From Escherichia phage nieznany, in sequence record NC_052659.1: a DNA stretch of 64,000 bases; one strand, written 5' to 3'. A model generated the notes under the pieces. That model searched no databases. It was not told where the DNA came from and worked only from the letters and a program-made list of their open reading frames with translations. A program made the translations under genes and the position numbers. The stretch's first letter is position 1. The number at the start of each line of letters is the position of its first letter. This document shows positions 4,577 to 17,918 of the stretch, in pieces.

Positions 4577-5371
4577 ATGTCCGAGAAAATCAGCCTGAAA
4601 AAACGTCAAGAAAACCTTGCTTTCTCTCTGAAAAAGAATAAGAACCTGAATGAAGGTAAGATTGTTCTTCGTGTAGCATGTGCTCTAGATATTTCTGGTA
4701 GTATGCATGGTCTATATTCTAGTGGGGTAGTGAGTGATTTTGTAGGTAAACTGCTTCCTTTTGGTATGCTGTTCGACGATAATCAACAAATTGATATGTG
4801 GGCCTTCAATACGAGTTCCCAAGAGCTTACTCCAGCAACAGCAGACGTTTACGATGACTATGTTGGTAAATGTATGCGTAATGTTCGTATCGGAGGTGGA
4901 ACAAATTACGCCCCTGTAATGGCAGATATCTACGATGAGTATTTTGGCACTGTTACCAAATATATTACCACTAAACAAGTGGTACAAGAGGAGGCTCCAA
5001 AGAAAGGCTTCTTTAATCGTCTGCTTGGTAAAACTGAAACAGTGTCTGTAGAGCGTGAAAAAGTTGTAGCTGTATCTGAACCAGGTGCTGACGTTACCCC
5101 TGGTGTTGTATTCTTCCAGACGGATGGTGAGAATGGTGATCCTAGTGCTGTTCGTCGTCTTATTGAAGAGAATAAGAATAAACCTATTTATTGGTTCATG
5201 GTTGGCGTTGGTAATGAGAAGTTTGGCTTCCTGAAAGAACTGGCAAATGCTTATGATAATGTTGGTTTTATTGGCATTAAAGATTTAGACTTGACAGATT
5301 CAGAGCTTTATGACAAACTCTTATCTGAAGAGTTCGGAGAGTGGGTTGTTAAAGTAGGTGCTAAAAAATGA
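4577..5371 (+). CDS. von Willebrand factor A domain protein with TerD-like N-terminal leader (TerY/TerF-like)
   Basis: MIDAS-like DISGS motif, GGGTNY and TDGENGD motifs; N-terminus SEKISLKK resembles TerD N-terminus. Confidence 0.55.
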   Translation: MSEKISLKKRQENLAFSLKKNKNLNEGKIVLRVACALDISGSMHGLYSSGVVSDFVGKLLPFGMLFDDNQQIDMWAFNTSSQELTPATADVYDDYVGKCMRNVRIGGGTNYAPVMADIYDEYFGTVTKYITTKQVVQEEAPKKGFFNRLLGKTETVSVEREKVVAVSEPGADVTPGVVFFQTDGENGDPSAVRRLIEENKNKPIYWFMVGVGNEKFGFLKELANAYDNVGFIGIKDLDLTDSELYDKLLSEEFGEWVVKVGAKK

Positions 5372-5616
5372 TCGACGAGCTTGCCTCTCAAGTCGTAGAA
5401 AATTATTGGCGCGAGAGAGAAGCTTTCATTATGCGCAGTCTCAAAGAGTATTTCATTGGGACTGTGCGAATGGAAGATATTGTAAGTAGAGTAGAGATTC
5501 ATGTATGGCCCGATTATGAAGAATGGGTTGACAAAGAAAATGAAAATGCTATAATTCTTCGTATATACAAACCGGAGATAACATTAGGAGGAAGAAGTGT
5601 TAAACTTCGAAATTGA
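5368..5616 (+). CDS. hypothetical protein
   Basis: ORF overlapping neighbours by a few nt. Confidence 0.35.
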   Translation: MIDELASQVVENYWREREAFIMRSLKEYFIGTVRMEDIVSRVEIHVWPDYEEWVDKENENAIILRIYKPEITLGGRSVKLRN

Positions 5617-5866
5617 TGAGCAAAAAGTAAATAAACGATGCCTTACCATTAAAGATTTGGATGTAGGAGATACTTTCGTCTATGAAAATGCATTTGACGA
5701 AAATGGTTTAGACCTTAGTGAAATCATTGTTTATTTAAAAGTAGATGATGGGGAAAATGATTATTCTGCTGTAGAACTAAACCATCATGCACAATTAGTA
5801 TCAATCCAAAACACATCTAAGCTTTTGGAAGTAGAATTGACTGTAACTGGTATTACACTTAAATAA
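5597..5866 (+). CDS. small protein, paralog B of duplicated Ter-associated ORF
   Basis: GTG start after AGGAGG; paralog of 4297..4575; directly precedes TerD gene. Confidence 0.45.
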   Translation: MLNFEIDEQKVNKRCLTIKDLDVGDTFVYENAFDENGLDLSEIIVYLKVDDGENDYSAVELNHHAQLVSIQNTSKLLEVELTVTGITLK

Positions 5867-5881
5867 TAGAGGAGACAAAAG

Positions 5882-6484
5882 ATGACTGATAAAATTTCCC
5901 TGAAAAAAGGCTCTAGCGAAAAAATTTCCCTGAAGAAAGTTGCTCCGGCTCTGAAAGAACTGCGCCTGGAATTCTCTTGGAAATCTGATTCTAAACTGGA
6001 TCTGGATGTAAGTGCACTGGTTTGTCGTCACAATGCCGCTGGCAATCCTGAAATGCTGTCTGCACGTCATCTGGTTTGCTATGCTAACAAGTTTGATCCT
6101 GAACGTTCTACCTTCGCTGGTGACGATGTTCGTGATGGGACTGGCAGCATGGAGCAGATTGATATTACTCTGGCTAAAATCTCTCCTGATGCACAAGAGA
6201 TTGCCTTTGTTCTGACCATTGATGATGATACAGGTCTGAAACGTTTTGGTCATGCTTCTGAAGGTATGCTTAAAATCTTCGACTCCGAGCGTAATGTGGA
6301 AATTCTGGATTTTGACTTCCTGGCTCCTGAAGTAGCTGGCAACACAATCTGCCACGTGGCTTCCCTGGTTCGTGAAGATGGAGAATGGAAGCTGAAAGCA
6401 TATGGTGTAGGTAAAGCTGGTCTGGATATTTGCGATGTGGTGATGGCCTTCGGTGGTAAAAAAGAATGGTATGAATGTCCATAA
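5882..6484 (+). CDS. TerD-domain protein (tellurite resistance TerD/TerE/TerZ family)
   Basis: N-terminal repeated KISLKKG/KISLKKV, central LTIDDDTG acidic patch, C-terminal GEWK.KAYGVGKAGLD, about 200 aa: pattern of TerD family. Confidence 0.7.
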   Translation: MTDKISLKKGSSEKISLKKVAPALKELRLEFSWKSDSKLDLDVSALVCRHNAAGNPEMLSARHLVCYANKFDPERSTFAGDDVRDGTGSMEQIDITLAKISPDAQEIAFVLTIDDDTGLKRFGHASEGMLKIFDSERNVEILDFDFLAPEVAGNTICHVASLVREDGEWKLKAYGVGKAGLDICDVVMAFGGKKEWYECP

Positions 6485-6584: not shown

Positions 6585-7106
6585 TTGCTGATAAAAAACT
6601 TTGTAACAGTTGCGTTACTATCCTTAACTGCTTTTACATTTACACCTGTTGTGGCGAAAGCCGAAGCTGCAAACGTAAAAACCGCTAAAGTAGTTCACAA
6701 ATGTACAAAGCAATATAATGATAAAATTCTATTAGCTTGTGCAATTTACGCAGAAGGTCGCGGTCTGGGTAAAAAAGGAATGAATGCCGTTGGGAATGTG
6801 GTAATCAACAGAAGAAATGATGCCTACTTCCCTAACACAGTCAAGGGAGTCTTGTTCCAGAAAGGGCAATTCTCATATGCGAAAACTTTTAACGTGACAG
6901 AGAAAGATAAGTGGCAGGAAGCAAAAGCAATAGCGGAGCGTTTACTTTATTTAGAGAAACATTTTCCTGAATTGCGGTCTGTTTTAGATGTTACTAAAGG
7001 TGCTCTATACTTCAAGAAACGGAATATAAGGACACACTGGGAGCGTGATATGCGTCTTGTTTATCGAGATAAAGTGCATGGTTTCTATCTACCAAAGGGG
7101 AGTTAA
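6585..7106 (+). CDS. SleB/CwlJ-like cell wall hydrolase with N-terminal signal sequence (endolysin candidate)
   Basis: AIYAEGRG...GMNAVGNVVINRR...VLFQKGQFSYA matches Hydrolase_2 signature; hydrophobic N-terminus. Confidence 0.55.
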   Translation: MLIKNFVTVALLSLTAFTFTPVVAKAEAANVKTAKVVHKCTKQYNDKILLACAIYAEGRGLGKKGMNAVGNVVINRRNDAYFPNTVKGVLFQKGQFSYAKTFNVTEKDKWQEAKAIAERLLYLEKHFPELRSVLDVTKGALYFKKRNIRTHWERDMRLVYRDKVHGFYLPKGS

Positions 7107-7807: not shown

Positions 7808-8371
7808 ATGATTTATTATATTACTCCCTATCTGACAGGAAATATCGGCAAGGCTATCAATGAAGCTATTGCCGTTCTTCCAGATGATAGTTGGGTGTGC
7901 TTAAGAGATACCGATACAATGTTCCTCCTGCCTGATCAACCATCTATGCTTGAAGAGCTTATTATGTCAAACCCGCCTTTTGATGTAATAGGTGCAACTT
8001 GTAACAGGTTAGGTAGTGGTTATCAGCTTTTCTCTAACCAAATTAACGATGATCCAAATATTCTAAACCATATAGAATATGCTAAGATTGCAAGAGAATA
8101 TCATAAAGTGAGTGTTGAAGAAGTTCCTTTCGGAACACCTCTGGCAGGTTTCTTTTTGCTTTTTAGAAAATCATTGTGGAATGAAATTCCTTTCGAAGAA
8201 AAATCTATCCAATTCGACCTAATTTTCTCTCGCACTTTACATGAAAAAGGAAAAAGGTTAGGATTGATGCGGGGAATGTATCTGTTTCACATTTACAGAT
8301 TAGGTCAAACAAATCCTCAACGGTCTATACATCATTTATTACACTGTCACGATCACAGTAAAACTATCTAG
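7808..8371 (+). CDS. hypothetical protein, possible GT-A-like glycosyltransferase
   Basis: DTD acidic motif; adjacency to other putative glycosyltransferases; weak. Confidence 0.3.
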   Translation: MIYYITPYLTGNIGKAINEAIAVLPDDSWVCLRDTDTMFLLPDQPSMLEELIMSNPPFDVIGATCNRLGSGYQLFSNQINDDPNILNHIEYAKIAREYHKVSVEEVPFGTPLAGFFLLFRKSLWNEIPFEEKSIQFDLIFSRTLHEKGKRLGLMRGMYLFHIYRLGQTNPQRSIHHLLHCHDHSKTI

Positions 8372-8379
8372 GAGAGAAA

Positions 8380-9063
8380 ATGGAAAATATTAAAATCGGA
8401 GTGGGTGTTATCACTGTAGGTGTCCGTCCACTTAAAGACTATCTTGTAACAGATCCACATGCAGATTTTCGAGTATTCAACGATCCAGATCGTAAAGGTG
8501 TAGCTTACGCCAGGAATGAACTTATGCACCAGTTTTATGAAGAAGGTTATGATTATTGGTTTATTTTTGACGACGATTGCTACCCAATCATGGAGGGATG
8601 GGAAACATATTTTGTAGATCAAGCTGTCTCTGGAGGATGGGATTTCTTTGGTATGCCGGAGTATTTCAAAGATAAAGTTGTTGGGAGTAAAGGAGAAGTT
8701 ATTCTCTGGGAACTTGCAATGTGTCAATTTGCAATGTATTCTCGTGCCGTTGTTGAGAAGATGGGTTATTTCCGCCCTTACACTCACGGCTATGGTTTTG
8801 AAGATGCTGAATGGGTACACCGTTTGAAAGCTGCTGGTTTGAATCAGGGCATTCAGGCAATACCTTGTCCACTTCATATCATGGCTTATATCCACCCAGA
8901 CGATGTTTTTGGAAACAATCCTATGCCTTTTGCTAATCTGACAAAAGAAGAGAAAGAAGCTGCTATTGGCATTAACTGGGAAGAATATAAAGCGTCTTTA
9001 GAAGATATTAAAAATGGGAAAATCCGAATTTCTTATGAGGAGGCACTGGCACATGTCAAATAA
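8380..9063 (+). CDS. hypothetical protein, possible GT-A-like glycosyltransferase (DxD)
   Basis: FIFDDDCYP motif resembles DxD of GT-A fold enzymes; weak. Confidence 0.3.
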   Translation: MENIKIGVGVITVGVRPLKDYLVTDPHADFRVFNDPDRKGVAYARNELMHQFYEEGYDYWFIFDDDCYPIMEGWETYFVDQAVSGGWDFFGMPEYFKDKVVGSKGEVILWELAMCQFAMYSRAVVEKMGYFRPYTHGYGFEDAEWVHRLKAAGLNQGIQAIPCPLHIMAYIHPDDVFGNNPMPFANLTKEEKEAAIGINWEEYKASLEDIKNGKIRISYEEALAHVK

Positions 9064-10000
9064 AAAATGGACTAAACTGAAAATTGATGCAAAACCTCAC
9101 AGTGGTTGTGATTATCATCGTATTGTTATACCATTTAACAACAATAATCTTCAACCTAAGAAAGATGTTGTTGTGTTTAACCGTATTCACTCTAAAGGTG
9201 CAGAATATGTTTTGTCCCTGAAACGTCAAGGTGTTAAGATTGTTGTAGATTTAGATGATTTCTACCAACTTAATCCAGAACATTATTTAGCAAGTCTATA
9301 CGAGTCAAACACCCATTCTATTGTAGCTATGGTTAAGCTTGCTGATGTGGTCATTGTGACTACGGAATACTTGGCATATAAGATCCGTCACTTAAATAGG
9401 AATGTTGTTGTGATCCGAAATGCACTTCCTTTTGATAGCGGACAATTCACTTTGTCAAATGATCGTTCATCCGGTACCCCTGTCGTATGGGCTGGCGGTG
9501 CTAGTCACGAACCCGACTTACGACTAGTCTCTAATACTTTCGACGATGACCTTCTTACTATTGCGGGATATGAGGCATCACAGAGCATCACGGGACAAGA
9601 GTGGATTAAGATTCGCAGAAATTTACCAAATGCCAAATATAAAGCCGCTGTAAAAGATTTAGATAATTACATGAGTGTTTACGAGGGTCATGCTATTGCT
9701 ATAGCTCCTCTGGTAGATAACGATTTTAATAATTGTAAAAGTAATCTCAAAATCTTGGAAGCTGGGGCAAAAGGTATTCCAATTGTTTGTTCTAAGGTAT
9801 TACCTTATTTTAACCCTGTAGATGCTCGCGCTGTTGCTTACGCAGAGAATAAAGCAGAATGGCATTACGAAATTGTTAAGCTTCTTCGCAATCCGAACTA
9901 TCGGGAAGATCGTGGCTTGTTCTTAGCGGAACATGTTCGAACACATTATAATCTGGCAGATGCAAACGAATTGCGACGCCAGGTTATTGAAAGTTTGTAG
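9053..10000 (+). CDS. putative GT-B fold glycosyltransferase (paralog 1)
   Basis: ATG 9053 after GAGGAGG; C-terminal NNCKSNLKILEAGAKGIPIVCS resembles GT1/GT4 motif; paralog of 10008..10952. Confidence 0.45.
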   Translation: MSNKKWTKLKIDAKPHSGCDYHRIVIPFNNNNLQPKKDVVVFNRIHSKGAEYVLSLKRQGVKIVVDLDDFYQLNPEHYLASLYESNTHSIVAMVKLADVVIVTTEYLAYKIRHLNRNVVVIRNALPFDSGQFTLSNDRSSGTPVVWAGGASHEPDLRLVSNTFDDDLLTIAGYEASQSITGQEWIKIRRNLPNAKYKAAVKDLDNYMSVYEGHAIAIAPLVDNDFNNCKSNLKILEAGAKGIPIVCSKVLPYFNPVDARAVAYAENKAEWHYEIVKLLRNPNYREDRGLFLAEHVRTHYNLADANELRRQVIESL

Positions 10001-10007
10001 GTGAAGT

Positions 10008-10952
10008 ATGGGACAAATAATTCTTGACAATCGTAACGGAATCAATTATAGTGTCTGCGATTTCCATAGGGTAGTGCTGCCTTACTCAAGGCAGTTCTCT
10101 TCACAACCTAAATACAACGTTTTCGTTTTTAACGGAGTGCCAACAAAAGGTAAAGAGGGCTTTTTAGCCCTTAAAAACCTGGGCTTTAAAATGGTTATGG
10201 ATTTGGATGACTCTTTAGTTATTCCAAAAGGACACATGTTAGAAGGTATTTTTGAATCAGGTATTCGTGAACATTTAAAATGGTTTTTAGAGCACAGTGA
10301 TCTTGTTACAACTACGACACCTGCCTTGCAAGTTGAACTTTCACAATACAATGATAATGTGCACATAATCCCTAATGGACTTCCTTACGATGAAGGTCAA
10401 TTTGTGTTGACCCGTGATCGCTACTCCAAAACTCCATTAGTCTGGGCTGGAAGTGAAACACATAAACAAGATTTGGCTATCTTGCCCGATTTTGGTAAAG
10501 ATCTTACAATATGTGGTTTTCGTAGGGATTCTGAAGTTTTAAGTAGTCGTGAATGGTCTTTAATCAGGGAAAATGTAGCACCAACTTGTGTTTATGAAGG
10601 TGTAAGACCATATGCCAACTACATGGAATCTTACGATGGTCATCAAATCAGTCTTGCACCATTGATCGATAACGTGTTTAATAATGCAAAAAGCAATCTT
10701 AAAATTCTTGAGGCAGGTGCTAAGGGTTTACCTTTAATCTGCTCTCCTCGTGAGAATTATCATACACAAGAGTTTAAAGATTTGTTATTCTTTGCTGAAA
10801 CACCTTCCGAGTGGAAAGATATTACGGAATACTTATTAAGTGCTCCCGATGTTTGCATGGAGAAAGGATTAGCATTAGCTAAGTATGTCAGGACTCATTA
10901 TCACATTGATGTGTTGAATGAGCGTCGTAGACTTTTATTTGAGGAGCTATAA
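10008..10952 (+). CDS. putative GT-B fold glycosyltransferase (paralog 2)
   Basis: Shares CD(Y/F)HR, DLDD, PLVWAG, NNAKSNLKILEAGAKGLPLICS with 9053..10000. Confidence 0.45.
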   Translation: MGQIILDNRNGINYSVCDFHRVVLPYSRQFSSQPKYNVFVFNGVPTKGKEGFLALKNLGFKMVMDLDDSLVIPKGHMLEGIFESGIREHLKWFLEHSDLVTTTTPALQVELSQYNDNVHIIPNGLPYDEGQFVLTRDRYSKTPLVWAGSETHKQDLAILPDFGKDLTICGFRRDSEVLSSREWSLIRENVAPTCVYEGVRPYANYMESYDGHQISLAPLIDNVFNNAKSNLKILEAGAKGLPLICSPRENYHTQEFKDLLFFAETPSEWKDITEYLLSAPDVCMEKGLALAKYVRTHYHIDVLNERRRLLFEEL

Positions 10953-11230
10953 TGATTAACACTTTTGATTTTGAATACACCACTCGTAACGGGAAAGCCT
11001 TGGTTGTGGAGGTGGATTACTATTATGAAGAACCTAATCCACTTTCTCGTGAAAGCGATTGGGATTACCACGGAGGGCTTTTAATTGACGGTATTCGTTT
11101 TTATGAAGGATCTACAGAAGTTTTTGAAAAAGATTTAAATGTAACTGTAGCAGAAATTGCTTTCCAATTTAGAAAGCACATGGAAGAACTAGAAGCAGAA
11201 TATATGATGGAGACTAACGAACCATTTTAA
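10952..11230 (+). CDS. hypothetical protein
   Basis: ATGA overlap with upstream gene. Confidence 0.4.
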   Translation: MINTFDFEYTTRNGKALVVEVDYYYEEPNPLSRESDWDYHGGLLIDGIRFYEGSTEVFEKDLNVTVAEIAFQFRKHMEELEAEYMMETNEPF

Positions 11231-13554: not shown

Positions 13555-14349
13555 TTGAGCAAGTTGAACACACTTGATCAATATTACACTAACCCCGCTT
13601 ATGCGGGGTTCTTATGTGATAAGATCAAAGAAATTTTTGGAGAGGAAGCTAACTACGTAGAACCATCTGCGGGAGAAGGAGCTTTCTCTTCTTGTTTTAA
13701 AAACATAACTTCTTTTGATATTGATCCTAAGTTTGAAGATTGTATTGAGGCAGATTTTTTAGCTCAATCTGTAGAGTCTGTTGGTAGTGTAACTGCTTTT
13801 GTCGGTAATCCTCCGTTTGGAAAAAATGCTAGTCTTGCCATTAAGTTCTTTAACCATTGTGCTGAAATGTTGGATAACGAAGGTGGTATTTGTTTTATCT
13901 TGCCTCGCACATTTCAAAAAATCTTTTTTGCACACAAACTAAATCCCCACATGCATCTTCTTTACGAAGAAGAATGTCCAAAAGGATCTTTTATTCTTCA
14001 TGGAGAACCTTGGGATGTTCCTTGTGTATTCCAGATATGGACTAAACGCAACGAGAAGCGTTCTCCCGTTGTTTTAGGAGAAAATCGACTATTCGTATTA
14101 GGCAACAGTAAAGACTACGACATAGCCGTTAGGAGAGCGGGAGCAAGTGCAGGTAAAGTGTTATCAGAAGAAGATTCTTTATCTGAAGCATCTACCTATT
14201 TTTTAAAAGCCTTGACTTCTGATCTTAAAACGCGTATCATTGAGGCTTACCCGTTACTTAAAGCTGAAGCTAGTAAAACTGCGGGAGTAAGAAGTTTAAG
14301 TTTAAAAGAACTTCAGTGGGTTCTGGAGAACATTAGAAAGGAGGAATAG
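13555..14349 (+). CDS. putative DNA N6-adenine (or N4-cytosine) methyltransferase
   Basis: SAM-binding EPSAGEGAF followed by catalytic NPPF motif; TTG start after AAGGAGG. Confidence 0.55.
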   Translation: MSKLNTLDQYYTNPAYAGFLCDKIKEIFGEEANYVEPSAGEGAFSSCFKNITSFDIDPKFEDCIEADFLAQSVESVGSVTAFVGNPPFGKNASLAIKFFNHCAEMLDNEGGICFILPRTFQKIFFAHKLNPHMHLLYEEECPKGSFILHGEPWDVPCVFQIWTKRNEKRSPVVLGENRLFVLGNSKDYDIAVRRAGASAGKVLSEEDSLSEASTYFLKALTSDLKTRIIEAYPLLKAEASKTAGVRSLSLKELQWVLENIRKEE

Positions 14350-17300
14350 TGAGTAAGTTTACATGGGATATTGAAGCAAACGGATTGTTGAATAATGACA
14401 CTATTGATTATTTAGCTAGTCCTTATCGTCTCAAAGACACATTTCAAATGCACTGTATTGTCTTAGAGAACCATGAAACAGGAGAAATAGTAGCTTTCCA
14501 CGATGGCCCTAAATACATTTTTGATGGTCGTCCTTATGAAGAGTCAGATGATAAATATACATATGTTCTTAAAGAATATGTGGCGCAAGATTACACACAT
14601 TTTCAACTAAAAGATTTCCCAGATTTTATTAATCATGAAGGTTATTTTAAAGACAAGCCTGAATATTTGGTTGAAATGGCTGTGGCACACAACGGTATCA
14701 ACTATGACTGGTTGGCTACAAAACTGTTTTATGGATTAGATTACAGTGTTAAATATAACACGTGGGGTAAAAGCAAGGTAAAACTTATTGACTCCTTAAT
14801 TTTGAGTAAAGTGTTAAACCCAGATCGAAAGATTGAGGGCAAATCAGGACATAGTTTGGCAGCACTTTCTCGAAAGGCAGGTGGGGATGTAAAAATAGAT
14901 TTCCGTAAAGAGATTCCAGAAGAAGATCGATTTAAGACTTTTGCTGCGGATATGCTTTATTACTGTATCTATGACAACAAAGCCAATACGAGCGTATATA
15001 ATTACCTTATGGAAGAGTGGGGTGATTATGATAAATGGGAAGGTCCATTTGAACTTGAACAACGTGTAGCAGACATTATTACACGCCAGGAACACCGTGG
15101 GTTTGCTTTTAACATGAAGCAAGCAGAAGAGAACCTTGCTTTTTTAGATGCAGAAATGGAGCGTCTTCGTTTACTCGTTGAGCCTATTTTGCCACCTAAA
15201 CCAGCAACAAAAGGTTATCTTAAGGCTTTTATTCCACCTAAGTTGCAAATTAAAAAGAACTTAGAGCCAACTAACCATATGATCAATTTTGCTAAGAAAC
15301 ATGATGGTCATTTGGAAGAGAGGGATGGAGATTGGTGGTTAGTGATGTTGGGGAAAGAGTGGAAACTGCCAGTTGCAGCAGATGAGCCTTTGTGTGATCC
15401 TAATATCCCTGCAACATTGAACGATACAACCCATATTAAAAACTGGCTTGTAGGATTAGGTTGGGTACCATCGGAATATAAAGATAAAGATTTGACTCTT
15501 AAATCTGGCACCAAGATTAAAAAGAGTGAGGAAGAACTTCAGAAAGGTATTCGAGCTTACGTTGAGCAAACTCTATCTTCTAATTTTTGTCAAGACCGTT
15601 GTGATCATCTGGAGTGCACACCGGAAACCTTGGAAAGGAAGATTCAAGAGCGTATAGCAAAAGGTAAAGGTCGAGGTCTTAAAGTATTGACTAACCCATG
15701 TTTTACCAAAGGTCAGGAAAAAGAAATCTGTCCTAACCTGCAAGCTTTGGGTGAGAAATTTCCTTATGCTACACAGATTGTAGAATACTTAACGTATAAA
15801 CACCGTAGGAACTCTATTTTAGGTGGTGGTGCCGATTGGGAAGAAGACGAAGAAGATCAAGAATACAACAAAGGTTTCTTGGCAGCAGTTCGTGCAGATG
15901 GACGTATACCTACGCCAGCGGCTACATGCGATGCAGCAACCTCTCGTATGAAGCATAGGTCTGTAGCCAATATTCCTCGTGTTACCTCTTTGTTTGGATG
16001 GCAGATGCGTAACCTGTTTGGTGTAGAGGTTCCTAAATACTTCCAGATTGGTTATGACTTTGATTCATTAGAGGCGAAGATTGAGTCGCATTATACGTGG
16101 AGATATGATAATCCTGATCATGCTTACTGTAATGCACTTCTGTTAGAAAAACCAAACGATGTGCATACTATGATGGCAAAACATATTACTGATATTATTG
16201 GACGTAAGTTTGAACGTGGTCCTGCTAAGAGCGTTAAATACGGTTGTGTACCTGTAGATAATACGGAAGTGTTAACAAGAACGGGTTGGAAGAAACGTAA
16301 AGATCTTTTTGTAGGGGATGAAGTTTTATCTTATAATACTCACACCGCTCTTTACGAATATACCCCTATTCTTAAGCTGTGGGACTATAACGATGCAGAA
16401 GTTGTCTCTCTCGGTAACAAGTGGTTCAAAGTAGAAGTTACTAACGATCATATGTGGATTAACGCACAGAGAAAAACTATGCGATCAGATGGTAACAATG
16501 TTAAGTATATGCAAGTGGAGCGTAGATCTACAGAGGATTTAAACTCGGAGTCAAACATAATTGCAGCAGGGCGATCTGGTGTGGTGTCTACTCTAACAGT
16601 GGAAGAAGGTCGTTTCTTAGGCTGGCTTCTTTCGGATGGCTACTATAAGTGGTCTGGCAAAGCCAGAAATAAAGTAATGGGTATTACAGTCACGGTAGAT
16701 CAAGATGAGAAAAAATTCTTAGAAGAAGCACGTGAGGCTGTGGGAGATATCTTCACATTTGACGAGTATGTATCTGGAACGATGCATTCATTACGTCCTA
16801 ATAAGAGTCAGTTTAGGGAATTTTTGACTAAATGTGGCGTTGAAGTGGGTCAAAATAAGCACGAAGTGGACTGGTCTACATTAATTGCTAATCAAGGTCA
16901 AGCTGTGTTGGAAGCATTCTTAGAGGCATTCTGGATGGCAGATGGTCATAAGCGTCCAAACGGCAGTCTTGTTATCCGTCAAAAGAAAGGTAAGATTAGC
17001 GACGCTGTTTCTTTGGCTATCAATATGACAGGTAATATTGCGTATGGTTCTGTTCAAAAAGATGGCATGTTAACGTTGGCAATCAATAACGGACAAACTA
17101 TTTCAGGACAGAGGTTGACAAAAGCTTTTTCACGAGTAACAGATGTATTCTGTATCTCAACCAAGAATGAATCTTTTGTTATGCGTCAGAATGGTTTTAT
17201 CACGTTGACAGGTAACTGCACGTACGGCGCTCAAGCAGACAAGGTTGCTAAAACAATTGGTAGCGATAAATACACAGGGCAACTGGTGTTCGATGCTTTC

Positions 17301-17918
17301 TGGGAAGCTGCATTCCCACTGGCGCGTCTTAAAGAACGTTTAAACGATTTCTGGGTTAAGACTGGTAAACAGTATGTTTTGGGTATTGACGGTCGTAAGG
17401 TTCCTACTCGTTCTGCTCACGCGATTCTTAACTCTCTGTTCCAAAGTGGTGGGGTTATCTGTGCTAAACGTGCAATGGTTATTTATGACGACATGATCGA
17501 AGAAGAAGGGCTAAGTGTTGACTTCTTTAAAGATGACTGGAAGAATAAAGACTTCGTGCAACAAATGATTGCATATCACGATGAAGCCCAGCTTGAAGTT
17601 TCTCGTAACCTTGTAGAATTTAAATGGTTTTCACCTGAATCATTAGGTTGGAAGAAAGTAGACGATCCTGAAGAACAAAAGAAAATTGATAAAGAATGCC
17701 TTGCTAAAGTTGAAGAATGGAAGCATAATAAGGAAAAAGAGACAGGGCAAATTTGGGCTAACATTCATGAATCTCCCAAAGGTGGATGGTTTACAGCCTA
17801 TAGTCGGGCAGGTGAACTTGCTGCTTTAGCTGTTACTAAGGCTGGAGAATTTTACAATCTTAATGTTCAGCTTACTGCCGGATATGATGTGGGTAACTCC
17901 TGGGCGAGCTGCCATTAG
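14349..17918 (+). CDS. family A DNA polymerase with 3'-5' exonuclease domain, interrupted by an intein
   Basis: Exo I DIEANGL; motif A GYDFDSLEAK; motif B RGPAKSVKYG|intein|CTYGAQADK (compare T7 RDNAKTFIYGFLYGAG); motif C YHDE. Confidence 0.9.
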   Translation: MSKFTWDIEANGLLNNDTIDYLASPYRLKDTFQMHCIVLENHETGEIVAFHDGPKYIFDGRPYEESDDKYTYVLKEYVAQDYTHFQLKDFPDFINHEGYFKDKPEYLVEMAVAHNGINYDWLATKLFYGLDYSVKYNTWGKSKVKLIDSLILSKVLNPDRKIEGKSGHSLAALSRKAGGDVKIDFRKEIPEEDRFKTFAADMLYYCIYDNKANTSVYNYLMEEWGDYDKWEGPFELEQRVADIITRQEHRGFAFNMKQAEENLAFLDAEMERLRLLVEPILPPKPATKGYLKAFIPPKLQIKKNLEPTNHMINFAKKHDGHLEERDGDWWLVMLGKEWKLPVAADEPLCDPNIPATLNDTTHIKNWLVGLGWVPSEYKDKDLTLKSGTKIKKSEEELQKGIRAYVEQTLSSNFCQDRCDHLECTPETLERKIQERIAKGKGRGLKVLTNPCFTKGQEKEICPNLQALGEKFPYATQIVEYLTYKHRRNSILGGGADWEEDEEDQEYNKGFLAAVRADGRIPTPAATCDAATSRMKHRSVANIPRVTSLFGWQMRNLFGVEVPKYFQIGYDFDSLEAKIESHYTWRYDNPDHAYCNALLLEKPNDVHTMMAKHITDIIGRKFERGPAKSVKYGCVPVDNTEVLTRTGWKKRKDLFVGDEVLSYNTHTALYEYTPILKLWDYNDAEVVSLGNKWFKVEVTNDHMWINAQRKTMRSDGNNVKYMQVERRSTEDLNSESNIIAAGRSGVVSTLTVEEGRFLGWLLSDGYYKWSGKARNKVMGITVTVDQDEKKFLEEAREAVGDIFTFDEYVSGTMHSLRPNKSQFREFLTKCGVEVGQNKHEVDWSTLIANQGQAVLEAFLEAFWMADGHKRPNGSLVIRQKKGKISDAVSLAINMTGNIAYGSVQKDGMLTLAINNGQTISGQRLTKAFSRVTDVFCISTKNESFVMRQNGFITLTGNCTYGAQADKVAKTIGSDKYTGQLVFDAFWEAAFPLARLKERLNDFWVKTGKQYVLGIDGRKVPTRSAHAILNSLFQSGGVICAKRAMVIYDDMIEEEGLSVDFFKDDWKNKDFVQQMIAYHDEAQLEVSRNLVEFKWFSPESLGWKKVDDPEEQKKIDKECLAKVEEWKHNKEKETGQIWANIHESPKGGWFTAYSRAGELAALAVTKAGEFYNLNVQLTAGYDVGNSWASCH
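16245..17216 (+). mobile_element. intein (324 aa) with LAGLIDADG homing endonuclease, inserted in polymerase motif B
   Basis: Starts with Cys after KYG; ends ...FITLTGN before Cys+1; LAGLIDADG-like LGWLLSDGYY and LEAFWMADGH; excision restores motif B. Confidence 0.7.

What the first reader, a model, noticed from the sequence alone, without database searches (positions are those of the whole stretch)
7808..10952. Array of four putative glycosyltransferases including a tandem GT-B paralog pair
9053..10000 and 10008..10952 are paralogs with a GT1/GT4-like C-terminal motif (SNLKILEAGAKG.P...CS), preceded by two ORFs with DxD-like acidic motifs. Four glycosyltransferases in a row in a phage early region suggest DNA hypermodification (a methyltransferase is also encoded at 13555..14349), virion glycosylation or host surface-glycan modification.
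Basis: partly seen in the sequence, partly recalled or inferred. Interest (0 to 1): 0.6.

Follow-up and report, generated by a model that had tools for sequence, protein, structure and literature searches.

The report
Four-gene phage glycosyltransferase cassette
Four adjacent, well-conserved sugar-transferring enzymes in a phAPEC8-like coliphage are real, but they probably decorate something other than the phage DNA (perhaps the virus particle), and their core gene pair turns out to be widespread in phages.

Summary
The window is a Phapecoctavirus (phAPEC8-like coliphage). Positions 7808-10952 encode four tightly packed, co-directional glycosyltransferases (GTs). GT1 is a minimal GT-A, GT2 is a GT-A with an invariant DDD motif, and GT3/GT4 are GT-B paralogs (42% identity). 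All are under strong purifying selection. RefSeq already annotates them as "glycosyltransferase x4".

- Virion DNA of near-identical phages is cut by HincII.
- The sister genus, which carries the same four genes, is exceptionally sensitive to restriction-modification systems.
- No ThyA-type hydroxymethylase, TET-like dioxygenase or C5-methyltransferase was found.

New findings:
- GT2→GT3-type genes form a mobile pair present in hundreds of viral contigs and prophages.
- The pair usually sits next to terminase and head genes.
- GT4 is a lineage-specific duplicate.
- GT2 is related to a glycosyltransferase in the virion-glycosylation locus of cluster-F mycobacteriophages.
- The same phages encode RmlABCD (dTDP-L-rhamnose synthesis).

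Best guess (about 0.4): the cassette builds a rhamnose-containing oligosaccharide on virion proteins. Modification of host envelope glycans and other acceptors remain open. The acceptor is inferred, not shown.

The parts
7808..8371 (+). GT1: 187-aa minimal GT-A glycosyltransferase with an invariant D34-x-D36 motif. It is an optional member of the cassette in other phages.
8380..9063 (+). GT2: 227-aa acidic (pI 4.9) glycosyltransferase, assigned to the GT-A class by sequence family only. It has invariant R45, D64-D65-D66 and E141-D142. It is the upstream half of the conserved GT2→GT-B gene pair.
   Evidence: phrog_2456 at 7e-79 and phrog_1579 at 6e-13. A profile search finds 963 cluster representatives. 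Of 65 sampled relatives, 36 hit Glycos_transf_2, 27 hit Glyco_transf_7C, 11 hit TAGT weakly, and all 65 hit phrog_1579. It aligns to the N-terminal domain of mycobacteriophage Rita gp101 at E = 1e-13 with a shared FDDDCYPI motif. It lies directly upstream of the GT-B in most of the 53 of 105 loci that have it. No structure was predicted.
9053..10000 (+). GT3: 315-aa basic (pI 8.5) GT-B glycosyltransferase. It is the ancestral copy, orthologous to the single GT-B of the prophage cassettes.
   Evidence: phrog_7162 at 7e-149. It is 51% identical to the Serratia prophage GT-B, compared with 39% for GT4. Nearly all of the 23 bacterial-genome homologs score better with GT3 than with GT4. dN/dS = 0.035. 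Fold is inferred from its 42% identity to the modelled GT4.
10008..10952 (+). GT4: 314-aa acidic (pI 5.6) GT-B glycosyltransferase. It is a lineage-specific tandem duplicate of GT3 that retains the family's conserved residues.
10952..11230 (+). 92-aa ORF of unknown function, translationally coupled (ATGA overlap) to GT4. Its membership of the module is uncertain.
   Evidence: phrog_4240 at 6e-33 with unknown function, and no Pfam hit. It has no homolog next to the cassette in the temperate phages.

Best explanation
The four genes are a glycan-assembly cassette: two GT-A enzymes (GT1, GT2) and two paralogous GT4-like GT-B enzymes (GT3, GT4). They appear to be co-transcribed with the replication genes. 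The evolutionary core is a GT2→GT3-type gene pair that moves between unrelated phages as a self-contained module. GT1 is an optional add-on, and GT4 is a duplicate specific to the phAPEC8/phi92 group.

Proposed mechanism. Using dTDP-L-rhamnose made by the phage's own RmlABCD enzymes, plus host UDP-sugars, the enzymes act in the cytoplasm one after another. Together they build a short oligosaccharide of up to about 3-4 residues, likely containing rhamnose, on a non-DNA acceptor. The most likely acceptor is one or more virion proteins, as in the virion-glycosylation systems of mycobacteriophages, giving the particle a glycan coat.

What is shown:
- GT identity and folds for GT1 and GT4.
- Paralogy of GT3 and GT4.
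- Purifying selection on all four genes.
- Mobility and gene order of the cassette.
- Presence of RmlABCD in the same phages.
- No sign of a known DNA-glycosylation route in the genes scanned.

What is inferred: the donor sugars, the order of action, and above all the acceptor.
For: GT identity and folds.

Selection: dN/dS 0.035-0.10.

Mobility of the cassette:
- A Serratia prophage has GT1-GT2-GT-B in the same order (40%, 36% and 51% identity), between the lysis genes and HNH-TerS-TerL.
- Lambdoid/P22-like contigs L008 and L009, four Pseudomonas prophages and a Chitinophaga prophage place the pair next to terminase and portal genes.
- In 105 loci, 53 have a GT2-type gene, mostly directly upstream of the GT-B.
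- In an abundant environmental lineage the GT-B is followed by an XkdF-like prohead protease, HNH and terminase.
- Nothing but the GTs is shared between these phages and Phapecoctavirus.

Link to virion glycosylation:
- GT2 is homologous to Rita gp101, and 346 Mycobacterium phage records match, those listed being cluster-F types.
- That gene occupies the locus of Che8 108-110, next to an HNH gene at the genome end.
- Che8 and Rita virions are reported to be glycosylated (Freeman 2023, as cited in PMC11256854 and PMC12363180).

Bacterial relative: a 38%-identical GT2 homolog lies in a multi-GT glycan locus that also has a CgeB-like GT-B.

Donor: RmlA-D score above the equivalog cutoffs in a close relative. 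RmlD hits have almost the same per-host record counts as the GT hits (Escherichia 105 in both).

Against DNA as acceptor: HincII cuts the DNA (PMC10269720), the sister genus is RM-hypersensitive (PMC8594841), there is no ThyA, TET or C5-MT, and ThyA lies near the GT-B in only 2 of 105 loci.
Against: - No direct evidence exists that these virions are glycosylated.
- No homolog of Che8 gp110, the enzyme reported as essential for capsid glycosylation, was detected. GT1 also shows no relation to Che8 gp109.
- Capsid, decoration, tube and sheath proteins show no Ser/Thr-rich C-terminal extensions.
- In this window the cassette lies in the replication block, next to primase/helicase, not in the late module.
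- The cassette moves between phages with unrelated capsids and brings no acceptor protein with it. That fits a universal acceptor (host molecule or DNA) at least as well.
- Rhamnose use is inferred only from co-occurrence within one phage subfamily.
Confidence: 0.4

Rival explanations
1. Host envelope glycan modification. The soluble GTs act at the cytoplasmic face of the inner membrane on lipid-linked intermediates (lipid A-core, Und-PP-linked ECA or O-units). They add rhamnose or other sugars, so that the surface glycans used as receptors are altered. The benefit would be superinfection exclusion, less loss of progeny on debris, or lysogenic conversion in the temperate carriers.
For: - GT4's best structural neighbours include enzymes that act on lipid-linked or membrane acceptors: PglH, PglA, PimA, PimB, WaaG, WaaB and TarM.
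- GT3 and its prophage ortholog are basic (pI 8.3-8.5), which fits binding to an anionic membrane.
- The cassette moves between phages of Escherichia, Serratia and Pseudomonas without a phage-encoded acceptor.
- In temperate phages it sits at typical moron positions, between Q and lysis or between lysis and terminase.
- These phages use ECA/surface glycan and LPS core as receptors (PMC8594841).
- A bacterial GT2 homolog lies in a glycan-biosynthesis locus.
Against: - There are no membrane components: no flippase, no GtrA/GtrC-type proteins and no hydrophobic segments.
- The cassette is not next to integrase or att sites as classical seroconversion modules are.
- The positions appear to be late-transcribed, which argues against expression in lysogens.
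- In a strictly lytic 150-kb phage, remodelling the surface within one latent period would change little of the existing envelope.
Confidence: 0.22
2. DNA glycosylation. The GTs attach sugars to a modified base in phage DNA to evade nucleases, as in T-even phages, RB69/DLP3 or TET-associated systems.
For: - The array lies among replication genes, next to primase/helicase and DNA polymerase.
- The phage encodes its own sugar-nucleotide pathway and several GT-B enzymes, as RB69 and DLP3 do, and their validated DNA GTs share GT4's structural neighbours (PMC13326640).
- GT2 has weak matches to TAGT (E = 1e-3) and to the T-even beta-glucosyl-HMC-alpha-GT PHROG (5e-6), and carries an R…DDD…ED motif.
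- A divergent ThyX-like gene of unknown specificity is present.
- In one environmental lineage a ParB-N6/N4 methylase is a frequent neighbour.
Against: - HincII cuts the DNA of Phapecoctavirus and Justusliebigvirus isolates, while T-even DNA in the same study resisted it (PMC10269720).
- Bas60-62, which have the same GTs, are exceptionally RM-sensitive (PMC8594841).
- No ThyA/gp42 homolog is present in 150 kb of the relative, in the window or in the temperate contigs.
- No TET/2OG-dioxygenase or C5-MT was found in the scanned ORFs.
- ThyA lies near the GT-B in only 2 of 105 loci, compared with about 28% (ThyS) and 10% (5mYOX) reported for DNA-modifying GT-B pathways (bioRxiv 10.1101/2023.12.21.572611).
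- GT2 has a net charge of -14.
- The cassette occurs in small temperate phages, where no nucleotide-modification genes were seen in the portions examined.
Confidence: 0.12
3. Another soluble acceptor. The cassette would glycosylate a small molecule, RNA, or a host or phage non-structural protein. Examples are a rhamnosylated metabolite, possibly linked to the adjacent Ter/PRTase 'nucleoside-like metabolite' module, or a host factor modified for takeover or anti-defence.
For: - In this phage group the cassette lies a few kb downstream of a Ter-type cluster: TerC, TelA, TerD, vWA-TerF and a ComF-like PRTase.
- A self-contained mobile cassette fits a universal cellular target.
Against: - The cassette occurs in many phages without any Ter genes.
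- Three to four distinct GTs suggest an oligosaccharide rather than a simple glycoside.
- The recurrent association is with packaging and head genes, not with metabolic genes.
- No specific candidate acceptor was identified.
Confidence: 0.2

Closest known systems
Mycobacteriophage virion-glycosylation cassettes (Che8 gp108-110; Rita gp101/gp103; Corndog, Myrna)
   Same: These are clusters of several soluble phage GTs with no membrane partners. GT2 is homologous to the N-terminal domain of Rita gp101 (E = 1e-13, shared FDDDCYPI motif), and all sampled GT2-family members hit the same PHROG (phrog_1579). In temperate-phage versions of the cassette the position (GTs - HNH - terminase) mirrors Che8 and Rita, where the GTs precede the HNH gene at the genome end.
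   Different: No homolog of Che8 gp110, the reported essential enzyme, was found, and GT1 shows no detectable relation to Che8 gp109 or gp110. The GT-B partner (phrog_7162) is absent from the Che8 and Rita loci examined. The host is Gram-negative. The phage carries its own dTDP-rhamnose pathway. In this window the cassette lies in the replication block. Glycosylation of these virions has never been shown.
Phage DNA polyglycosylation systems (T-even alpha/beta-GT on 5hmC; RB69/DLP3 polyarabinosyl-5hoC; TET/5mYOX-associated GTs)
   Same: The phage encodes a sugar-nucleotide pathway plus several GTs. The GT-B enzymes have the same structural neighbours (6kih, BshA, PimA). The location is among DNA-metabolism genes. 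GT2 has a GT-A R…DDD…ED motif.
   Different: The defining base-activating enzyme (a ThyA homolog or a 5mYOX with a C5-MT) is missing. The DNA is cut by HincII, and the sister genus is RM-hypersensitive. Pfam TAGT is below threshold (19.2 versus 27.5 bits). There is no sequence similarity to T4 AGT or BGT.
CgeB-like / Glyco_trans_1_2 (PF13524) and CAZy GT4-type GT-B enzymes
   Different: GT3 is below the Pfam cutoff. Only the second Glu of the classical GT4 E-x7-E motif is kept (A227...E235). The family has its own conserved N-terminal CD(Y/F)HR and DLDD motifs, which hints at a His/Asp base and an inverting mechanism. That last point is inference only.
Gtr-type O-antigen conversion modules of temperate phages (GtrABC)
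   Same: Phage-borne GTs that alter glycans. One of the 65 GT2-family members weakly hits the GtrB-like PHROG.
   Different: There are no GtrA flippase or GtrC membrane proteins, no hydrophobic segments, and the cassette is not next to integrase or att sites. It is present in a strictly lytic myovirus.

Membership tests
GT-B fold glycosyltransferases (GT4-like / Pfam Glyco_trans_1_2) | Two Rossmann-like domains with an inter-domain cleft | tested here: met
GT-B fold glycosyltransferases (GT4-like / Pfam Glyco_trans_1_2) | Score at or above the Pfam gathering threshold | tested here: inconclusive
   GT4 scores 25.2 bits against a cutoff of 25 for PF13524. GT3 scores 19.2 (PF13524) and 21.4 (PF13692), both below cutoff. 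Many homologs carry precomputed PF13524.
GT-B fold glycosyltransferases (GT4-like / Pfam Glyco_trans_1_2) | E-x7-E motif of retaining GT4 enzymes | tested here: not met
   Only E235 is conserved. The position 8 residues upstream is A227, while K228 and K232 are invariant. The motif definition comes from established knowledge of GT4.
GT-A fold glycosyltransferases with a DxD motif | Single Rossmann-like GT-A fold | tested here: met
GT-A fold glycosyltransferases with a DxD motif | Conserved DxD metal/nucleotide-sugar motif | tested here: met
   GT1 D34 and D36 are invariant in 22 sequences. GT2 D64, D65 and D66 are invariant in 14 sequences, and D66 is invariant in 65.
T-even / RB69-type DNA glycosylation system | ThyA-family enzyme that makes 5hm- or 5ho-pyrimidine nucleotides | tested here: not met
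   tblastn with T4 gp42 and E. coli ThyA gave no hit at E <= 0.1 in 150 kb of NC_052654, in the window, or in L007-L009 and L011. The two probes detect each other at 5e-11. Only a divergent ThyX is present (Thy1, 5e-8).
T-even / RB69-type DNA glycosylation system | Virion DNA resistant to restriction enzymes | tested here: not met
   From the literature, not from an experiment here. HincII RFLP was obtained for ESCO5/13/25/37/REC and ESCO8/9/32, and only the T-even phages resisted (PMC10269720). Bas60-62 are exceptionally RM-susceptible (PMC8594841).
TET/5mYOX-associated glycosyltransferases (Pfam TAGT) | Pfam TAGT at gathering score, with neighbouring C5-MT and 5mYOX genes | tested here: not met
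   TAGT scores 19.2 bits against a cutoff of 27.5 and covers only residues 33-68. No dioxygenase or C5-MT domain was found in the 30 ORFs scanned, which were mostly unannotated ORFs of 130-370 aa plus the three annotated 'DNA methyltransferases'. Smaller ORFs and genes with other annotations were not scanned.
Mycobacteriophage virion-glycosylation cassette | Homolog of the essential GT (Che8 gp110 / Corndog gp38) | tested here: not met
   BLASTP of GT1-4 against Che8 gp110 and Rita gp103 gave nothing below E = 0.28. hhalign of the GT1 profile against gp110 gave probability 0.2%.
Mycobacteriophage virion-glycosylation cassette | Homology to another GT of the same locus | tested here: met
   GT2 against Rita gp101 residues 21-234 gives E = 1e-13. 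346 Mycobacterium phage records match by tblastn. phrog_1579 is hit by 65 of 65 family members.
Mycobacteriophage virion-glycosylation cassette | Glycans covalently attached to capsid or tail proteins | not testable with these tools
   This needs glycoprotein staining or MS of purified virions. The sequence check for Ser/Thr-rich C-termini was uninformative.
GtrABC O-antigen conversion | Membrane flippase and membrane GT partners, adjacent to integrase or att | tested here: not met
   The maximum 19-residue Kyte-Doolittle hydropathy is 0.76-1.65 for GT1-4. The neighbours are replication, lysis or packaging genes.

The most novel reading that the evidence does not exclude
The cassette may glycosylate DNA by a route independent of the known ThyA and TET/5mYOX chemistry. 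One possibility is sparse or sequence-specific marks, or a base hydroxylated by the divergent ThyX-like enzyme. Either could leave HincII and the tested RM systems unaffected. That would be a new class of phage DNA glycosylation, carried by a mobile GT2→GT-B pair found in hundreds of viral contigs. The best explanation itself is also a notable reading: at a probability of about 0.4 it would be the first virion-glycosylation system in phages of Gram-negative bacteria, in a genus used in therapy cocktails.
Probability: 0.06. Interest if true: 0.85.

Novelty: new variant of a known kind. Interest (0 to 1): 0.45.

Why it matters
Phapecoctavirus and phi92-like phages are broad-host-range coliphages that are frequently proposed for therapy. 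If their particles carry a rhamnose-containing glycan coat, that would affect antibody recognition, clearance and mucus interactions, as reported for mycobacteriophages. It would also show that virion glycosylation is not confined to actinobacteriophages.

Independently of the acceptor, the GT2→GT-B pair is an uncharacterised, widespread, mobile phage module, with more than 567 relatives in IMG/VR. One experiment on an easily grown coliphage could therefore assign a function to hundreds of phage genes.

The result also corrects a tempting over-interpretation. Several GTs plus a sugar-nucleotide pathway next to replication genes do not by themselves indicate DNA hypermodification.

Tried and rejected
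1. DNA hypermodification. I searched for ThyA/gp42, scanned 30 ORFs, mostly unannotated ones of 130-370 aa, for TET, 2OG-dioxygenase or C5-MT domains, and read the restriction-digest and RM literature. All of this argues against it.
3. Homology of GT1 or GT2 to Che8 gp108-110 by BLAST and hhalign. Only a weak GT2-gp108 signal (E = 0.003-0.012) and the solid GT2-Rita gp101 link were found. GT1 is unrelated.
4. Ser/Thr-rich C-terminal acceptor tails on capsid, decoration, tube or sheath proteins. None were seen.
5. A co-transferred acceptor protein shared by cassette-bearing phages. None was found.
6. Solved-structure relatives of GT2 by sequence or profile. Only spurious hits came back.
7. NCBIfam naming of the GTs gave nothing.
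8. The afdb50 fold library was unavailable. The phi92 genome paper, Freeman 2023 and the Cell Reports version of Pyle 2024 were not held.
9. The promoter/terminator scan showed nothing above shuffled expectation.
10. A functional link to the upstream Ter/PRTase cluster was considered unlikely, because the cassette occurs widely without Ter genes.


Full report
**What the window is.** A 5-kb stretch around the finding is 99.6% identical to Escherichia phages vB_EcoM-Ro121lw and phAPEC8_ev052, and 99.4% identical to ESCO13. The window is therefore a Phapecoctavirus (subfamily Stephanstirmvirinae), a roughly 150-kb lytic coliphage. RefSeq records of this genus already annotate "glycosyltransferase (x4)" at this position.

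**Checking the observation.**
- The four ORFs are present on the + strand at 7808-8371, 8380-9063, 9053-10000 and 10008-10952.
- They are packed with 8-nt and 7-nt gaps and one 11-nt overlap. A 92-aa ORF follows with an ATGA overlap.
- RefSeq annotates a ribosome-binding site before each gene. No +-strand terminator-like site lies inside the array.
- GT3 and GT4 are paralogs: 42% identity over 303 residues, E = 2e-78. GT1 and GT2 are unrelated in sequence.
- The acidic motifs are conserved: D34-x-D36 in GT1 and D64-D65-D66 in GT2.
- PHROG glycosyltransferase families match at E = 7e-79 to 7e-149. Pfam is marginal or silent and NCBIfam is silent.
- dN/dS is 0.035-0.10 for all four genes against a relative with about 80% amino-acid identity, with dS near saturation.

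**Distribution and anatomy of the module.**
- All four genes are conserved across Phapecoctavirus and the phi92-like Justusliebigvirus, including phi92 gp163-166 and the BASEL phages PaulScherrer and JohannJBalmer. Identities are 66-76%.
- The hit counts are accounted for by Phapecoctavirus and Justusliebigvirus records. I infer from this that Vequintavirus lacks the genes.
- A Serratia prophage carries GT1-GT2-GT-B in the same order between its lysis genes and HNH-TerS-TerL. Identities are 40%, 36% and 51%.
- Lambdoid/P22-like contigs carry GT2 plus GT-B between the Q antiterminator and lysis genes, or between terminase and portal.
- Four Pseudomonas prophages have the order Ig-like protein - GT2 - GT-B - metallopeptidase - TerS - TerL - portal.
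- A Chitinophaga prophage has primase - GT-B - hexapeptide acyltransferase - GT2-like - TerS - TerL.
- Nearly all bacterial-genome homologs score better with GT3 than with GT4. Two GT-B copies occur only in Stephanstirmvirinae-like loci. GT3 is therefore the ancestral copy and GT4 a lineage-specific duplicate.
- IMG/VR holds more than 567 relatives of the GT-B.
- In 105 loci analysed with local HMMs, 53 have a GT2-type gene, mostly directly upstream on the same strand. Fourteen have a GT1-type gene.
- In the most abundant environmental lineage the GT-B is followed by an XkdF-like prohead protease, an HNH nuclease, a ParB-N6/N4 methylase and terminase.
- Two of 65 sampled GT2 relatives also match the GT-B PHROG, which suggests natural fusions of the two.
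- Apart from the GTs, nothing is shared between Phapecoctavirus and the temperate carriers.
- The cassette is thus a self-contained mobile module whose core is the GT2→GT-B pair.

**The donor.**
- A close relative encodes RmlB, RmlA, RmlC and RmlD, all above the NCBIfam equivalog cutoffs. They lie about 70 kb from the GTs and outside this window.
- RmlD homologs have almost the same per-host record counts as the GT hits (Escherichia 105 in both).
- Olsen et al. 2020 (PMC7552041) had noted this pathway and speculated about rhamnosylated DNA.
- That at least one GT uses dTDP-L-rhamnose is an inference from co-occurrence only.

**Is the acceptor DNA?** Several independent lines argue against it.
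1. In a study using HincII RFLP, only three T-even phages resisted the enzyme. The Phapecoctavirus isolates ESCO5/13/25/37/REC and the Justusliebigvirus isolates ESCO8/9/32 were typed by their digests (PMC10269720). ESCO13 and ESCO25 are 99.0-99.4% identical to this window.
2. Maffei et al. 2021 found the phi92-like Bas60-62, which carry all four GTs, "exceptionally susceptible" to RM systems "despite a putative dTDP glycosylation machinery" (PMC8594841).
3. All described phage DNA glycosylation routes start from a ThyA-family hydroxymethylase or hydroxylase, or from a TET-like 5mYOX with a C5-methyltransferase (PMC13326640; bioRxiv 10.1101/2023.12.21.572611). tblastn with T4 gp42 and E. coli ThyA found nothing in 150 kb of the relative's genome, in the window or in the temperate contigs. 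Pfam scans of 30 ORFs, mostly unannotated ones of 130-370 aa plus the three annotated "DNA methyltransferases", found no dioxygenase or C5-MT. One RefSeq "DNA methyltransferase" is in fact an XkdF-like protease. A divergent ThyX-like protein next to an NT5C-like nucleotidase is the only thymidylate-synthase-type gene.
4. A ThyA homolog lies within reach of the GT-B in only 2 of 105 loci. That compares with about 28% (ThyS) and 10% (5mYOX) reported for DNA-modifying GT-B pathways.

Caveats to this conclusion:
- The DNA-modifying GT-A class has an R…DDD…ED motif that GT2 also has.
- GT2 shows weak TAGT and T-even βα-GT matches.
- Fold and motifs therefore cannot exclude DNA, and sparse or site-specific marks would escape HincII and RM tests. 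I put the DNA reading at about 0.12.

**What is the acceptor, then?** The best lead is the link to mycobacteriophage virion glycosylation.
- GT2 aligns to the N-terminal domain of Rita gp101 (E = 1e-13). It matches 346 Mycobacterium phage records, those listed being cluster-F types. Every sampled GT2-family member hits the same PHROG.
- That gene occupies the GT locus at the right genome end, followed by an HNH gene. Che8 and Rita are reported to carry glycans on capsid and tail-tube proteins (Freeman et al. 2023, as cited in PMC11256854, PMC12363180 and PMC12619734).
- The arrangement GTs - HNH - terminase recurs in the Serratia prophage and in the environmental lineage. Proximity to head and packaging genes is the dominant context outside Stephanstirmvirinae.
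- A bacterial GT2 homolog (38% identity) lies in a multi-GT glycan locus with a CgeB-like GT-B, a UDP-galactopyranose mutase and GT92 enzymes. That fits enzymes that extend glycans.
- None of the four GTs has a hydrophobic segment. GT2 is very acidic, while GT3 and its prophage ortholog are basic.

Evidence against the virion reading:
- There is no homolog of Che8 gp110.
- No Ser/Thr-rich C-termini were seen on structural proteins.
- The cassette lies in the replication block in this phage.
- The cassette moves without an accompanying acceptor.

I therefore commit to virion-protein glycosylation at about 0.4. The rivals are host envelope glycan modification at about 0.22 and another soluble acceptor at about 0.2.

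**Comparison with known systems and novelty.** At the annotation level the four GTs are already known, and the dTDP-rhamnose link has been remarked on in two papers. As far as the searchable literature shows, the following are not described:
- that the core is a mobile GT2→GT-B pair found widely in phages;
- that it usually sits next to the packaging and head genes;
- that GT4 is a recent duplicate;
- that the module is related to the mycobacteriophage glycosylation locus;
- that a DNA role is disfavoured.

I rate it a new variant of a known kind (phage glycosylation cassettes) and of moderate interest. The function remains to be shown by simple experiments on easily grown phages.

Noticed in passing
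window 4577-6484 (and upstream to about position 1); L001/L002: A Ter-type cluster lies just upstream of the GTs. It has a vWA-TerF-like gene (4577-5371, E = 2e-37) and TerD (5882-6484, E = 3e-28). In the relative it also has TerC, TelA, a ComF-like PRTase, a hydrolase, a phosphatase and a SprT-like protein. This resembles the Ter-associated 'nucleoside-like metabolite' module described by Anantharaman, Iyer and Aravind (recalled from memory). Its role in a lytic phage is unexplained.
   Followed up: partly
window 6585-7106: A SleB-like cell-wall hydrolase (Pfam Hydrolase_2, E = 2e-17) has an apparent N-terminal signal peptide. RefSeq annotates it as an endolysin. It sits among early/replication-side genes rather than in a lysis cassette.
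   Followed up: no
window 14349-17918: The family-A DNA polymerase ORF is 1189 aa here, against 865 aa in ESCO13. The Pfam DNA_pol_A match stops near residue 634. The extra roughly 324 aa begin ...KYG/CVPVDN... and end ...TGN/CTYG..., which looks like an intein or homing-endonuclease insertion that varies between isolates.
   Followed up: partly
window 13555-14349: A 264-aa protein has an N6-adenine-methyltransferase-like NPPF motif (VGNPPFGKN). It hits phrog_799 DNA methyltransferase at 1e-10 but has only a weak Pfam Eco57I hit (E = 0.017). The same gene appears truncated or re-annotated (160 aa) in NC_052654.
   Followed up: partly
L003 9938-10417 (NC_052654 gp072), outside the finding: The RefSeq product name 'DNA methyltransferase' appears wrong. 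The protein matches the XkdF-like phage serine protease (Peptidase_S78_2, 1e-11) and lies between the portal and head genes.
   Followed up: yes
GenBank MG065650, MG065689, MG065645, MG065656: Records named 'Campylobacter phage' B15, A110a, A145 and C3 are 98-99% identical to E. coli Phapecoctavirus or Justusliebigvirus genomes. Mislabelling of host or contamination is likely.
   Followed up: no
L003 32053-33669 (NC_052654 gp235/gp234), outside the window: A divergent, unusually long (332 aa) ThyX-like protein (Thy1, 5e-8, partial match) lies next to an NT5C-like deoxyribonucleotidase. It is the only thymidylate-synthase-type gene found, and its specificity is unknown.
   Followed up: partly
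L004 35630-36172 and 4137-4952 (NC_052654), outside the window: A NADAR-domain protein (3e-35) and an annotated Sir2-like protein are encoded in the relative's early region. They may be NAD/ADP-ribose-related counter-defence genes.
   Followed up: no
L040-L042 (IMG/VR contigs, GT4 about 75% identity): In these Stephanstirmvirinae-like contigs GT1 appears to abut the GT-B pair directly, with no GT2 detected. GT2 may therefore be dispensable in some lineages, although elsewhere it is the most constant partner of the GT-B.
   Followed up: partly
L018 8645-9271 (Pseudomonas prophage): A 208-aa protein with a Big_2 Ig-like domain lies immediately upstream of the GT2-GT-B pair. Ig-like domains are typical of virion surface proteins, so it is a conceivable acceptor or partner. 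It is not conserved in the other cassettes examined.
   Followed up: no
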